64,000 nucleotides of DNA from Dehalococcoidia bacterium (GTDB taxonomy: Bacteria; Chloroflexota; Dehalococcoidia; UBA2979). The position numbers and the translations under genes are program-made. The notes under the pieces are model-generated. The model ran no database searches and had not been told where the DNA came from. It worked only from the letters and a program-made list of their open reading frames with translations. Below are positions 11,089-13,907 of the stretch, piece by piece (position 1 is the first letter of the stretch; each line of letters opens with the position of its first letter). Where the stretch lies: NCBI GenBank assembly GCA_965247925.1, contig CBDFIB010000004.1:288539-352538 (forward strand). Direction: 5' to 3'.

Positions 11089-11235
11089 TAGCAGGGTGAT
11101 GAAAAAGTCCGCCGCGGCGCTTTTGGGCTGAAATCGCGCTGGTCGCGACATCAAAAACCCCAATGTTTCTGGGCTCTACGCCAGCCCACCGAATGGCCAG
11201 TGAGACCCTACGGCTCAGGATCAGGAGTTTTTCAG
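11089..11235 (+). repeat. MITE-like element copy A, left part; interrupted at 11235/11236 by the IS110-family element, remainder at 12718..12728
   Basis: TAGCAGGGTGATGAAAAAGTCC...GGAGTTTTTCAG matches copies B and C over ~147 bp. The missing terminus CAGCCTGCTAG reappears at 12718-12728. Confidence 0.7.
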
Positions 11236-12717
11236 ATGGGATGAGGGCTGGTCTCCTCCTCAAGGGGATACTCGTCCCCGGTAAGCGGCCTCGAATCGGG
11301 CCCAGAACGGCTTCTCAGAGCCAGAGAGGTAGAAGACCAGCCATGCAGCAGCATATCGCAACGGCAGAGCGCGTTGAACGGGAGGAAGCCAGCGGAGTCA
11401 CCTGGGGCCTCGATGTGAGCGACCGTCACACCCAGATCTGCGTGCTCGGCCCCGCCGGGGACGTGCAGCGCGAGCAGCGCGTCCGCACGACGGCCCTCGC
11501 GCTGAGGCGAGCGCTCGGGGAGCTGCCGGCGGCACGGGCGGTGCTGGAGGCGGGACGGCACTCGCCGTGGCTGAGCCGGCTGCTGACCGAACTCGGTCAC
11601 GAGGTGATTGTCGCCAACCCCCGCCAGGTAGCGCTGATCGCACGCAGCCACCGCAAGGACGACCGCAGCGACGCCGAGCAACTGGCACGGCTGGGTCGCC
11701 TCGACCCCAAGCTGCTCGCCCCGATCCGTCACCGCAGCGCGCAGGCCCAGCAGGATCTCGCGGTCGTGCGCGGCCGCGACGCGCTCGTGCGCTCGCGGAC
11801 GCAGCTCATCAACCACGTGCGCGGCGCCGTCAAGGCGTGGGGCGCCGCGCTGCCGAAGGTGACCGCGCCAGCCTTCCATCGCAAGGCAGCGGAGCACATC
11901 CCGGCTGAACTGCGCACCGCACTGCTGCCGCTGCTCGAGGTGATTGGCGAGCTCAGCGCCCGCATCGCCGCCGCCGGCCGGGAGGTCGAGGCGCTGTGCG
12001 CGGCCTACCCCGAGACCGCCGCGCTCCGCCAGGTCGCAGGCGTCGGTCCCATCACCGCCCTCACCTTCGTGCTGACGATCGAGGATCCCGCGCGCTTTCC
12101 CCGCAGCCGCGAGGTCGCACCCTACCTCGGCCTCGTGCCCAGGCGTCGCGACTCCGGCGGCCGCCACACGCAACTGGGGATCACCAAACGTGGCGACTCC
12201 CACCTGAGGCGGCTGCTCGTGCAGGCCGCGCAGTACGTCCTCGGACCGTTCGGACCAGACTGCGACTTGCGCCGCTGGGGCGAGCGCTACATGGCCTCGG
12301 GAGCGGGGAACGCGAAGAAGCGCGCGGTCGTCGCCGTGGCGCGACGCCTCGCAGTGTTGCTGCACGCGCTCTGGCGCAGCGGCGAGGTCTATGAGCCGCT
12401 GCGCCAGGCCGCCACGGCGGAGGGGGAGGCTGCGTAGCGGGCGACGGGAAGACGGCGAACCACCACCAGACGACCACCAACGGCTGCACCGTGATGCTGA
12501 AGACCGGGCGACTGCGACAGGCTGCTGGTCCACCCAAGGACGCTTTTCAGCTGGCAGCGCCCCCTGCAAGCAGGTTCCCCATCATGCACCGGGTCCAGAA
12601 GCGCGACCCCTCGGCGAGTGCGGATAGAAGCGGGGCACAGGTCACCATCCGGCATGGCGTGCAGACGGAGCGGCCACCACGTTGGCCGACTTGCAGATCG
12701 GACCAGCCCTCATAGAA
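11236..12717 (+). mobile_element. IS110-family insertion sequence (~1482 bp) inserted into MITE copy A; short 5' non-coding end and a 280-nt 3' non-coding end
   Basis: Boundaries inferred by aligning MITE copies B and C across the insertion point (ttttcag^cagcctgctag). No terminal inverted repeats, as expected for the IS110 family. Confidence 0.7.
11343..12437 (+). CDS. IS110-family (DEDD) transposase
   Basis: From the internal ATG: MQQHIATAERVEREEASGVTWGLDVSDRHTQICVL... with the C-terminal IS110 domain (LRQVAGVGPITALTFV...LGLVPRRRDSGG). Confidence 0.85.
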   Translation: MQQHIATAERVEREEASGVTWGLDVSDRHTQICVLGPAGDVQREQRVRTTALALRRALGELPAARAVLEAGRHSPWLSRLLTELGHEVIVANPRQVALIARSHRKDDRSDAEQLARLGRLDPKLLAPIRHRSAQAQQDLAVVRGRDALVRSRTQLINHVRGAVKAWGAALPKVTAPAFHRKAAEHIPAELRTALLPLLEVIGELSARIAAAGREVEALCAAYPETAALRQVAGVGPITALTFVLTIEDPARFPRSREVAPYLGLVPRRRDSGGRHTQLGITKRGDSHLRRLLVQAAQYVLGPFGPDCDLRRWGERYMASGAGNAKKRAVVAVARRLAVLLHALWRSGEVYEPLRQAATAEGEAA

Positions 12718-13907
12718 GCAGCCTGCTAGAAGCGCTCGGCACATTTATCCAGCGGCTACCCAGCCCATCGAAAGTCATCCTTACTGACCGTGAACGTCGC
12801 GCCTTTTCCGAGCGGCTCGATCTTCGCGGGATCGAACCCGATGCGGCGGTCTCGCTGGTTAGGACAAGAGCCGCCGATGATGGGGTAGAGATTCCAGGTA
12901 CTCAGAACCGTGCAATCCCCGGCGTCAGCGAGGAACTGAACGGCGTGCCCTTGTATCTGCACTTCTTTGCGAATCTCCTCGTGGACGGCTACTCCGCTTC
13001 GGAGGCCCTGCAGAAGATCCGGGGCAATGACATGCTCTGGCTGCTGCGGTTCTCTTTCGACAGCTCTGTGCGGGGTCTGAGCGAGAGTGCTCGAGAGCTC
13101 CTCTACTACCTGGCTCACGTGCCAGACCCCGTCACGCGATCCGACCTATCGCAGGTGATAAGGAACGGTGAGGAACTGGACGATGCGGTGAGGCGCCTTC
13201 GAAACACGCACTTCATCGAAAACGTGGAGATGGGCAGCTTTCGAATTACCGATCGGCAACTTCGCGAATACGCCATAACGCAGTTCCCCGCACGAATCAG
13301 ACCGGACGCTGCCTCGCGGATCCAACACCTCGCAGGCACATCGGCTCAGTCTCATCCAAACATCGAACGAGCCATCCAGCAGCTTGTCCGGGAGGCAGAT
13401 GACCTTGGCCGATCAGATTGGAAGCGGGCGTACGATCGACTACAGGAGGGCAGGGCTGAGTTTGGAGACGCGAACGAGATCATCGCGAAGCTCGGGTATT
13501 TTGCCTTCAGACTTCGGCATCGAGACGAAGCGCGCAGATTGCTCGAGAAGGCCATCGCATCAGGGCACCAGGATGCGAACACACATCGGACGTTAGGGCT
13601 TGTCTACCACTACGACCGGAGCCCTGACGAAGCGATCAGGCAAGCTGAGATCAGCTTGACCCTGAGACCCGATGAGCCCCGCTCCCTGCTGCTCTTCGGT
13701 GACGCACTGCTAGACAAAGCCGCGCACTCAGCGATCGCCCTGGATTCTTCTCGGAGGCTTGAACAGGTGCGAACCGCGAAGGGCGCGATTGTACGCTCGC
13801 TCATCGAAGACGACTTGAGGCGTTGGCAGCGTGAGCACAACGCCCGGCGCGCCCGTCTGCTCGAGCAAGCCGAGGCACTTGAGGAGTCCCTGGCTGCCAT
13901 CGTTTAG
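12618..13907 (+). pseudogene. disrupted STAND-NTPase-like / TPR-repeat protein gene (3' fragment); the first ~110 nt of the ORF are IS110 tail plus MITE terminus
   Basis: Low GC (~57%). Helical/winged-helix-like region followed by TPR-like repeats; no ATG downstream of the MITE. Reading frame is continuous with the 150-bp low-GC spacer at 10938..11088 when 11089..12728 is removed. Confidence 0.45.

What the first reader, a model, noticed from the sequence alone, without database searches (positions are those of the whole stretch)
11089..12728. IS110-family element nested precisely inside a ~165-bp MITE-like element; three MITE copies in the window
Copies B (39128..39294) and C (43810..43966) define a ~165-bp element with ~22-bp imperfect terminal inverted repeats: TAGCAGGCTGCTGAAAAACTCC against the reverse complement of TAGCAGGGTGATGAAAAAGTCC. 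Copy A matches them from 11089 to 11235 and then stops at ...TTTTCAG. Its missing terminus CAGCCTGCTAG reappears at 12718..12728. The 1482 bp in between carry an intact IS110-family (DEDD) transposase gene. The MITE was therefore the target of the IS110 insertion, between two CAG triplets inside the MITE's terminal repeat. This fits the preference of IS110/IS1111-type elements for palindromic repeats. The MITE has no coding capacity and also sits next to both IS1380 copies.
Basis: seen in the sequence. Interest (0 to 1): 0.55.

Follow-up and report, generated by a model that had tools for sequence, protein, structure and literature searches.

The report
RNA-guided IS1111-type element inside a MITE
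A 1.48-kb insertion sequence of the RNA-guided IS110/IS1111 kind sits exactly inside the end-repeat of a 151-bp non-coding mobile element, and the guide RNA it encodes matches that site; this is a clean example of a behaviour already known for this family.

Summary
A 151-bp MITE with imperfect 19-bp terminal inverted repeats and 4-bp CTAG/CTAA flanks occurs three times in the window. Copy A is split by a 1483-bp IS at TTTTTCAG|CAGCCTG.

The IS is IS1111-type. It has a DEDD transposase, a 13-bp subterminal inverted repeat, 7/3-bp terminal extensions and a long non-coding region downstream of tnp.

- Nine IS-free MITE copies exist (two here, seven in Dehalococcoidia/Tepidiformaceae MAGs).
- A second, 100%-identical IS copy sits at the same point in a different MITE copy that differs at 6 of 159 positions.
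- A homologous gene without the MITE shows the empty site.

The mechanism can be read from the sequence. The downstream non-coding region encodes a seekRNA/bridge-RNA scaffold. Its 5' guide (12518-12527) is complementary to CAGCAGCCTG, and its 3' guide (12544-12551) repeats TTTTCAGC. In 24 distinct relatives with other targets, these segments change with the target while the stems are kept.

Precedents exist: IS1111 in Coxiella QMITE2, and IS4321/IS5075 in Tn21 terminal repeats. I therefore rate it a new member of a known kind, well supported and of modest interest.

The parts
11088..11091 (+). Left target-site duplication (CTAG) of MITE copy A
   Evidence: The same 4-mer recurs at 12726-12729. 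The uninterrupted homologous gene has one copy of this position.
11092..11235 (+). MITE copy A, left 144 bp (left TIR CAGGGTGATGAAAAAGTCC up to ...GGAGTTTTTCAG)
   Evidence: 98% identical to copy B and 97% to copy C.
11236..12718 (+). IS1111-type insertion sequence, 1483 bp. Because of the AG ambiguity it can equally be written 11234-12716, which gives the family's 7-bp left (AGATGGG) and 3-bp right (AGA) extensions.
   Evidence: Boundaries come from comparison with empty MITE copies. An identical 1483-bp copy is in L001. The extension rule is from PMC11187229.
11241..11253 (+). Left subterminal inverted repeat, ATGAGGGCTGGTC
   Evidence: Perfect 13-bp inverted repeat with 12701-12713. The same architecture is seen in relatives.
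11343..12437 (+). Transposase/recombinase gene, 364 aa (DEDD RuvC-like domain plus PF02371 domain, with the GLVPRRRDSG motif)
   Evidence: Pfam, NCBIfam NF033542, PDB ISCro4 and IS621. The motif is read from the translation and compared with the rule.
12504..12638 (+). Predicted seekRNA/bridge-RNA scaffold in the downstream non-coding region: target-binding loop 12506-12562, linker hairpin, donor-binding loop 12577-12635
   Evidence: Alignment of 47 homologous segments. Helices 1 and 2 are 98% paired with compensatory changes. The single-sequence fold recovers the same helices.
12518..12527 (+). Top-strand guide CAGGCTGCTG, the reverse complement of target CAG|CAGCCTG
   Evidence: 10-nt match, seen in 1 of 5000 shuffles. 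The homologous segment changes with the target in relatives.
12544..12551 (+). Bottom-strand guide TTTTCAGC, identical to target top strand TTTTCAG|C
   Evidence: 8-nt match, seen in 2 of 5000 shuffles; both guides together in 0 of 5000. The order (T guide 5' of B guide) and the overlap in the target are as described for IS1111-type seekRNAs.
12578..12583 (+). Candidate donor guide CCCATC, complementary to G|ATGGG at the IS left end
   Evidence: Read from the alignment. Covariation in relatives is only partial.
12624..12630 (+). Donor guide ATAGAAG, identical to the IS right end
   Evidence: Changes with the right end in three states across relatives: ATAGAAG, ATGGAAG, ATAAGAG.
12701..12713 (+). 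Right subterminal inverted repeat, GACCAGCCCTCAT
12719..12725 (+). MITE copy A, last 7 bp (CAGCCTG) of the right TIR
   Evidence: Completes the MITE when the IS is removed.
12726..12729 (+). Right target-site duplication (CTAG) of MITE copy A
39137..39295 (-). MITE copy B, intact, including both CTAG flanks. It holds an unoccupied perfect IS target at 39141-39154.
43809..43967 (-). MITE copy C, intact, flanked by TTAG/TTAG. It holds an unoccupied perfect IS target at 43813-43826, and its right TTAG is shared with IS1380 copy 2.
10933..11090 (+). Upstream fragment of the host gene into which MITE A inserted (aa 213-265 of homolog P0001; 1-bp deletion near 11047)
   Evidence: tblastn; DNA alignment with L089.
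12726..13907 (+). Downstream fragment of the same host gene (aa 265-657 of P0001, 84% identical)
9274..10932 (-). IS1380-family IS, copy 1 (context), flanked by CTAA/CTAA. It truncates the same host gene.
43968..45626 (+). IS1380-family IS, copy 2 (context), flanked by TTAG/TTAG. It abuts MITE C.

Best explanation
Two separate mobile elements are nested.

(1) The MITE. A 151-bp non-coding MITE with imperfect 19-bp TIRs inserted at CTAG inside a protein-coding gene, leaving a 4-bp CTAR flank on each side. Some as yet unidentified transposase presumably moved it in trans.

(2) The IS. Later, a 1483-bp IS1111-type (IS110-family) element inserted into the MITE's right TIR, at TTTTTC-AG-CAGCCTG. 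It made no duplication and sits in a fixed orientation.

The site was chosen by RNA guidance. The non-coding region downstream of tnp encodes a seekRNA/bridge RNA. Its target-binding loop carries a 5' guide that pairs with the top strand (CAGCAGCCTG) and a 3' guide that pairs with the bottom strand opposite TTTTCAGC. A second loop carries segments matching the IS's own ends.

The recombinase-RNA complex would bring a circular IS copy and the MITE end together and exchange strands at the shared AG. Every MITE copy with the CAGCAG form of the right TIR is then a potential landing pad. Two such sites in the window are still empty.

What is shown: the nesting, the independence of the two elements, the empty sites, the guide-target matches, and their covariation across relatives.

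What is inferred: that the RNA is expressed, the circular intermediate, catalysis at AG, and which transposase moves the MITE.
For: Nesting and exact junctions.

Second independent event: L001 has the identical IS at the identical point in another MITE copy with different flanks. The MITE copies differ at 6/159 positions while the IS differs at 0/1483, so P is about 1e-25 for equal divergence.

IS-free MITE copies: B and C in the window, plus seven in five Dehalococcoidia/Tepidiformaceae MAGs.

Empty site for MITE A: homolog P0001 reads ...LPDEEL|EALGTF... without interruption, and Leu265 (CTA) is encoded on both sides of the insert in the window.

IS1111-type features.

Guides:
- 10-nt and 8-nt matches to the target; both together in 0/5000 shuffles.
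- In 24 distinct relatives the own-target match averages 8.4 nt against 5.3 nt for non-own pairings (top-strand guide), and 6.1 against 4.85 nt (bottom-strand guide).
- Anchoring on the top-strand guide match alone brings the invariant GACTGCG motif into register in 21/21 sequences.
- Helices flanking the guides are 98% paired with compensatory changes, while the guide columns vary.
- The donor guide tracks the right end in three states.
- The perfect target occurs in the window only in MITE right TIRs. The left TIR differs at 2 positions, including the core G.

The order and overlap of the guides match the published IS1111 seekRNA rule.
Against: - Only two IS copies were seen, so the target logo rests on two events plus the guide match.
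- There are no expression data, and no sigma-70-like promoter was found in the linear element.
- The RNA fold has no thermodynamic signal (z = +1.08).
- Helices 3 and 5 of the donor loop are only 51-58% paired in the MAFFT alignment.
- The 5' donor guide covaries only partly.
- In one close relative (L016) the predicted top-strand guide does not match the observed right flank.
- Rfam 15 has no matching family.
- The MITE's autonomous partner was not found.
Confidence: 0.87

Rival explanations
1. The ~147-bp repeat is simply the long left end of the IS (plus a short right end), not an independent element.
For: Both IS copies seen (the window copy and L001) carry it on the left.
Against: Nine complete copies of the repeat lack the IS and join ...TTTTTCAG directly to CAGCCTG. 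The repeat diverges by 3.8% between the two occupied copies while the IS is identical. Eighty relatives place the IS terminus 5 bp outside the subterminal IR, exactly at the junction.
Confidence: 0.01
2. MITE and IS move together as one 1.64-kb composite, mobilised through the MITE's outer ends. The two occupied copies would then come from one IS insertion followed by MITE transposition.
For: The outermost 7 bp of the right TIR and the whole left TIR remain at the outside of the composite. Both occupied copies have CTAG flanks.
Against: The MITE parts differ at 6/159 positions while the IS parts differ at 0/1483. The L001 MITE is closer to the IS-free copy L007 (3 differences) than to window copy A. 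The IS separates the terminal 7 bp of the right TIR from its remaining 12 bp.
Confidence: 0.04
3. The IS has no real site preference, and its presence in a MITE is chance or a general liking for palindromes or hairpins.
For: The MITE folds as a long hairpin as single-stranded DNA (z = -3.0).
Against: Two independent insertions are at the same nucleotide and in the same orientation. The IS encodes 10-nt and 8-nt matches to exactly this site, and the homologous segments change with the target in relatives. The near-identical left TIR is never used and lacks the AG core.
Confidence: 0.02
4. The 151-bp repeat is not a transposon derivative (MITE). It would be another kind of dispersed repeat, such as a REP/BIME-like or recombination-spread element, that merely carries the IS target.
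For: No autonomous element with matching TIRs was found. Copy number per genome is low: 1-2 exact 22-mer hits per representative genome.
Against: It has TIRs and matching 4-bp flanks, including a CTAA/CTAA variant at copy C. It is inserted inside a coding sequence, with the Leu codon duplicated and an uninterrupted homolog available. Flanks at most loci are unrelated.
Confidence: 0.06

Closest known systems
IS1111 inserted in QMITE2 of Coxiella burnetii (Wachter et al. 2018, PMC5896051)
   Same: An IS1111-family element sits at a fixed point inside a ~150-190-bp MITE. The 'missing' MITE bases are found on the other side of the IS, and IS-free MITE copies coexist.
   Different: The phylum is different (Chloroflexota-like MAGs rather than Gammaproteobacteria) and the MITE is unrelated. 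There the target is a GTAG REP-like palindrome inside the MITE; here it is the MITE's terminal inverted repeat. Here only 2 occupied copies are known, against 20 of 21 there.
[quoted passage not shown]
   Same: IS1111-family elements with subterminal IRs that insert at one position and in one orientation in the TIR of another transposon.
   Different: The host element here is a 151-bp non-autonomous MITE, not a Tn3-family transposon, and the target sequence is unrelated.
seekRNA of ISEc11, ISPa11 and ISKpn4 (Siddiquee et al. 2024, PMC11187229)
   Same: The RNA is encoded in the non-coding region downstream of tnp. The top-strand match lies 5' of the bottom-strand match, and the two overlap in the target. 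Close relatives with the same scaffold but other guides show natural reprogramming.
   Different: No biochemical evidence exists here, and the scaffold sequence is a different lineage. Here a second loop matching the IS ends can also be read.
IS621 bridge RNA (PDB 8wt6 and related entries)
   Same: An RNA with two internal loops, one matching the target and one matching the donor ends. The recombinase is homologous in the C-terminal domain (E = 3.6e-6).
   Different: In IS621 the RNA lies upstream of the gene and the guide order is reversed. IS621 has no subterminal IR. Protein similarity is remote.
ISPpu9 / ISPa11 in REP sequences
   Same: IS110/IS1111-family elements that use a dispersed short genomic repeat as multiple landing pads. 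Most relatives of the window IS also sit in a REP-like CCGAG|CCGCGACCG context.
   Different: REPs are not transposon remnants with TIRs and target duplications.

Membership tests
IS1111 group of the IS110 family | DEDD (RuvC-like) N-terminal domain plus PF02371 C-terminal domain | tested here: met
   PF01548 E = 2.6e-18 and PF02371 E = 2.6e-23. NF033542 at 234.8 bits against a cut-off of 140.
IS1111 group of the IS110 family | Subterminal inverted repeats of about 11-13 bp | tested here: met
   Perfect 13-bp repeat at 11241-11253 / 12701-12713. Rule.
IS1111 group of the IS110 family | Asymmetric terminal extensions, 7 (or 6) bp left and 3 bp right | tested here: met
   With the ambiguous AG assigned to the left end, the extensions are AGATGGG (7) and AGA (3).
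IS1111 group of the IS110 family | The longer non-coding region lies downstream of tnp | tested here: met
   281 nt downstream against 107 nt upstream. Rule.
IS1111 group of the IS110 family | GL-P----S(T)G motif in the C-terminal domain | tested here: met
   GLVPRRRDSG is read in the translation. Motif.
IS1111 group of the IS110 family | Insertion at one specific sequence, in one orientation, without target duplication | tested here: met
   Two events at the same nucleotide and in the same orientation. Removing the IS restores the intact MITE.
IS1111 group of the IS110 family | Circular intermediate with abutted ends | not testable with these tools
   Needs PCR or sequencing of the junction.
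seekRNA / bridge RNA | [quoted passage not shown] | tested here: met
   12518-12527 and 12544-12551. Both together in 0/5000 shuffles. Rule.
seekRNA / bridge RNA | Guides change with the target across relatives while the scaffold is kept | tested here: met
   Own-target against non-own pairings: 8.4 vs 5.3 nt and 6.1 vs 4.85 nt. Alignments. Helices 1 and 2 are 98% paired.
seekRNA / bridge RNA | A second loop matching the donor (IS) ends | tested here: inconclusive
   The 3' segment tracks the right end in 3 states. The 5' segment gives 6 nt in the window but only partial matches in relatives. Its helices are 51-58% paired.
seekRNA / bridge RNA | The RNA is expressed, binds the recombinase and is required for movement | not testable with these tools
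   Needs RNA sequencing, co-purification or a transposition assay.
MITE | Short (under about 300 bp), with no coding capacity | tested here: met
   151 bp. Only chance ORFs cross it.
MITE | Terminal inverted repeats | tested here: met
   CAGGGTGATGAAAAAGTCC against CAGGCTGCTGAAAAACTCC, 16 of 19. L002 and L003 carry a right end closer to the left TIR (2 mismatches instead of 3 over the same 19 bp).
MITE | Target-site duplication and an empty site | tested here: met
   CTAG on both sides in most copies and CTAA/CTAA in copy C. The uninterrupted homologous gene has one copy of the position. A TA duplication within CTAG cannot be excluded for the CTAG copies.
MITE | Several copies at unrelated loci | tested here: met
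   11 copies in the window, one metagenome contig and five MAGs; 10 distinct loci, since L006 and L008 share both flanks.
MITE | An autonomous partner with the same ends | tested here: not met
   None in the sequence held. The IS1380-family and IS630-like ends nearby are different. Whole genomes could not be scanned a second time.

The most novel reading that the evidence does not exclude
The nesting may be a conflict between two selfish elements, not just use of the MITE as a landing pad. By splitting the right TIR, the IS would disable the MITE copy it enters. The right-TIR variant seen in L002 and L003 (TTTTTCATCGCCCTG, with no AG core and four mismatches to the guides) would then be an escape allele, and the rapidly re-programmed guides of close relatives (L080, L016) would be the counter-move. 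Related elements that sit inside the seekRNA gene of a sibling IS (L010, L074) would be the same kind of warfare among the IS themselves.
Probability: 0.1. Interest if true: 0.5.

Novelty: new member of a known kind. Interest (0 to 1): 0.3.

Why it matters
This is a fully readable natural example of RNA-guided DNA insertion in an under-studied phylum. The target, both target guides, a donor guide, the empty sites and a second independent event can all be seen in sequence alone.

It adds a MITE terminal repeat to the list of natural IS1111-type targets. It also supplies about 50 related RNA scaffolds with different guides, which could be useful for mining programmable recombinases.

For annotation, it shows that the 159-bp repeat and the IS should be called as two elements, and that the surrounding gene is a pseudogene hit three times. 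It does not reveal a new principle.

Tried and rejected
- Rfam 15, at gathering threshold and at E <= 10, gave no family for the IS non-coding region or the MITE.
- A whole non-coding-region fold and the 135-nt fold gave no thermodynamic signal (z = +2.1 and +1.1), so support had to come from comparison with relatives.
- The promoter scan of the linear element found nothing. A junction promoter read by eye (TTGCAG ... TAGAAG) was too weak to claim.
- The exact-protein look-up showed only one further IS place, although eight blocks carry the protein.
- I tested whether the TPR gene next to the L001 copy is related to the gene hit in the window. It is not.
- I looked for the MITE's parent. The IS1380-family ends (CCCTGATCCACCGA...) and the IS630-like end (...ACTCAGGACA) do not resemble the MITE TIR, and no further TIR matches occur in any locus.
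- tRNA genes as the conserved left flank of L004-L008 were excluded.
- In L016 the predicted top-strand guide does not match the observed right flank. This is left unexplained.
- I checked whether the two IS1380 copies betray an inversion through their flanks. This cannot be decided, because CTAA and TTAG are reverse complements.
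Full report

A repeat of 159 bp, counting a 4-bp flank on each side, occurs three times:
- Copy B at 39137-39295 and copy C at 43809-43967, both on the minus strand and both intact.
- Copy A on the plus strand, from 11088. It matches them up to ...GGAGTTTTTCAG at 11235 and resumes with CAGCCTG+CTAG at 12719-12729.

The copies are 96-98% identical. Core and TIR patterns are absent from shuffled sequence.

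The insert is 1483 bp, not 1482, and the stated start of copy B is about ten bases low.

**The insert.** 11236-12718 carries one gene, 11343-12437, of 364 aa.
- It matches Pfam DEDD_Tnp_IS110 and Transposase_20.
- It matches NCBIfam NF033542, 'IS110 family RNA-guided transposase', at 234.8 bits against a cut-off of 140.
- Its C-terminal domain is remotely similar to the solved ISCro4 and IS621 recombinases.

A perfect 13-bp inverted repeat lies 5 bp inside each end (11241-11253 / 12701-12713).

The left flank and the IS right end both finish in AG, so the boundaries can be shifted by two bases. Written as 11234-12716, the extensions are 7 bp (AGATGGG) and 3 bp (AGA). This is the rule given for the IS1111 family (PMC11187229).

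The non-coding region is 107 nt upstream and 281 nt downstream of the gene, and the protein contains GLVPRRRDSG. Both are IS1111-type features.

**The host element is a separate mobile element.** Four lines of evidence support this.
- *IS-free copies.* A scan of one genome per species with a 22-mer from the repeat found seven further copies in five Dehalococcoidia/Tepidiformaceae MAGs. All are 92-96% identical, none carries the IS, and all run straight through TTTT(T)CAGCAG....
- *Flanks.* Across the 11 copies the flanks are mostly unrelated. The outermost 4 bp are CTAG on both sides, except in copy C (CTAA on both sides) and in L004, whose right end is degraded.
- *An empty site.* For copy A, a protein 84% identical to the downstream ORF (P0001, 658 aa, AAA_16/AAA_22 domains) reads ...LDNLETLPDEEL-EALGTFIQ... 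without a break. In the window, residues up to Leu265 are encoded at 11043-11090 and residues from Leu265 at 12726 onwards, so the CTA codon is present twice. The homolog's DNA is continuous across the point.
- *Element properties.* It is 151 bp, non-coding, has 19-bp TIRs with three mismatches, and duplicates CTAR. A TA duplication within CTAG cannot be excluded for the CTAG copies.

I therefore accept 'MITE', with the reservation that no autonomous partner was found.

An exact-protein look-up found the same transposase on a metagenome contig (L001). There the identical 1483-bp IS lies at the identical point and in the same orientation in another MITE copy with other flanks.
- The two MITE copies differ at 6 of 159 positions, while the IS differs at 0 of 1483. 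The probability is about 1e-25 if both parts had diverged together.
- The L001 MITE is closer to the IS-free copy in L007 (3 of 159 differences) than to window copy A.

So the 147-bp flank is neither part of the IS nor a co-travelling unit. The IS entered two already diverged MITE copies recently.

**How the site is chosen.** Siddiquee et al. 2024 showed that IS1111-type elements encode a seekRNA in the downstream non-coding region. It has a segment complementary to the top strand of the target 5' of a segment complementary to the bottom strand, and the two overlap at the insertion point.

The window IS has exactly this:
- CAGGCTGCTG at 12518-12527 is the reverse complement of CAG|CAGCCTG.
- TTTTCAGC at 12544-12551 repeats TTTTCAG|C.
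- Matches of these lengths occur in 1 and 2 of 5000 shuffles of the non-coding region, and both together in none.

A metagenome scan with the protein gave 80 related loci at 43-81% identity. They share the end architecture flank-AG|ATGGR-ATGAG...CTCAT-GGAAG|flank. Twenty-four of them have distinct non-coding regions and both flanks.
- In these, the junction-spanning probe finds on average 8.4 nt in the element's own non-coding region, against 5.3 nt for other elements with different targets. For the bottom-strand probe the figures are 6.1 and 4.85 nt.
- Anchoring 21 sequences on that match alone brings an invariant GACTGCG motif and the rest of the scaffold into register.
- In an alignment of 47 distinct homologous segments, the guides sit on the two sides of an internal loop. 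That loop is closed by helix 1 (GGGCG.CTGC / GCAGCGCCC, 98% paired, 3 pairs with double changes) and helix 2 (98% paired, 3 of 4 pairs with double changes).

A second loop follows.
- Its 3' side (ATAGAAG, 12624-12630) repeats the IS right end and tracks it across relatives in three states (ATAGAAG, ATGGAAG, ATAAGAG).
- Its 5' side (CCCATC, 12578-12583) is complementary to G|ATGGG at the left end, but covaries only partly.
- Helices 3 and 5 of this loop are poorly supported in the MAFFT alignment.

The single-sequence fold recovers all helices but is no more stable than shuffles. Rfam has no matching family.

In the window, the perfect 14-nt target exists only in the right TIRs of copies B and C. 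The left TIRs differ at two positions, one of which is the core G. This explains the single orientation.

**Comparison with what is known.**
- IS1111 itself sits inside QMITE2 copies in Coxiella burnetii: 20 of 21 copies, with the missing MITE bases on the other side of the IS (PMC5896051).
- IS4321 and IS5075 target the terminal repeats of Tn21-family transposons (Partridge & Hall 2003, cited).
- ISPa11 and ISPpu9 use REP sequences.
- Natural reprogramming between close relatives has been described. It is seen here in L080 and L016, which keep the scaffold but carry other guides.

The finding is therefore a new member of a known kind: a new IS, a new MITE, a new host lineage and a new target sequence, but the same logic.

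**Context.** The gene entered by MITE A is a pseudogene hit three times.
- An IS1380-family element (NF033539) cuts it at Leu213. Its two copies are essentially identical (a single mismatch near one terminus) and lie in inverted orientation at about 9274-10932 and 43968-45626.
- There is a 1-bp deletion near 11047.
- The N-terminal 212 residues are nowhere in the window.

Each IS1380 copy has CTAA/TTAG on both sides. Copy 2 shares its TTAG with MITE C, giving TTAG-MITE-TTAG-IS1380-TTAG. In four other loci the MITE abuts an IS630-like end at CTAG. Elements that seek CTAR sites re-create such sites at their own borders, which may be why they pile up. This last point is an inference.

**Verdict.** The mechanism is inferred with good comparative evidence. 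Novelty is low to moderate.

Noticed in passing
window 10933-13907: The host gene (homolog of a 658-aa AAA_16/AAA_22 protein) is a pseudogene hit three times: cut at Leu213 by IS1380 copy 1, a 1-bp deletion near 11047, and MITE A plus the IS at Leu265. Its N-terminal 212 residues are not found anywhere in the window, although IS1380 copy 1 has matching CTAA on both sides. An IS1380-mediated rearrangement is suspected.
   Followed up: partly
window 9270-10936 and 43964-45630: Two essentially identical (one mismatch near a terminus) IS1380-family copies lie in inverted orientation, bracketing about 33 kb. Each is flanked by CTAA/TTAG. Whether the segment has been inverted cannot be told from the flanks, because the two tetramers are reverse complements.
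   Followed up: partly
L004:5624-5920, L005:964-1260, L006:4774-5070, L008:7621-7920: In these MAG loci the MITE's left end abuts the terminus of an IS630-like element (...ACTCAGGACA|CTAG). The flank encodes typical IS630-type transposase N- or C-termini. This suggests that several CTAG-seeking elements stack at the same tetranucleotide.
   Followed up: partly
L010:1986-3536 and L074:3660-3700: Related IS1111-type elements are inserted inside the downstream non-coding region (the seekRNA gene) of a sibling IS. In L010 the inner element's guides match the linker hairpin of the outer element's RNA.
   Followed up: partly
L080:1012-1145 and L016:857-990: The closest relatives (81% and 76% protein identity) keep an almost identical RNA scaffold but carry different guide segments, which looks like natural reprogramming. 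In L016 the predicted guide does not match the observed right flank.
   Followed up: partly
L002:3478-3636 and L003:4946-5104: Two MITE copies in one genome have the right TIR TTTTTCATCGCCCTG. It is closer to the left TIR (2 rather than 3 mismatches over the 19 bp), lacks the AG core, and has four mismatches to the IS guides.
   Followed up: no
window 49563-49847: A tandem 21-bp coding repeat of about 13 units (GEFTELR-like heptads) lies inside an ORF.
   Followed up: no
window 37724-38772 and 39368-40416: Tandem paralogous genes (76-80% DNA identity, spacing 1644 bp) have MITE B in the gap between them. Other paralog pairs occur near 3449-4233, 14297-15394 and 40980-42450.
   Followed up: no
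window 37087-37168 (-): The only Rfam match at gathering score in the window is Ms_AS-4, an actinobacterial sRNA family, at 59.2 bits. This is odd for a genome that otherwise looks like Chloroflexota.
   Followed up: no
window 61456-61512 and 61753-61809: A 57-nt G-rich direct repeat (91% identical), 297 bp apart, of unknown nature.
   Followed up: no
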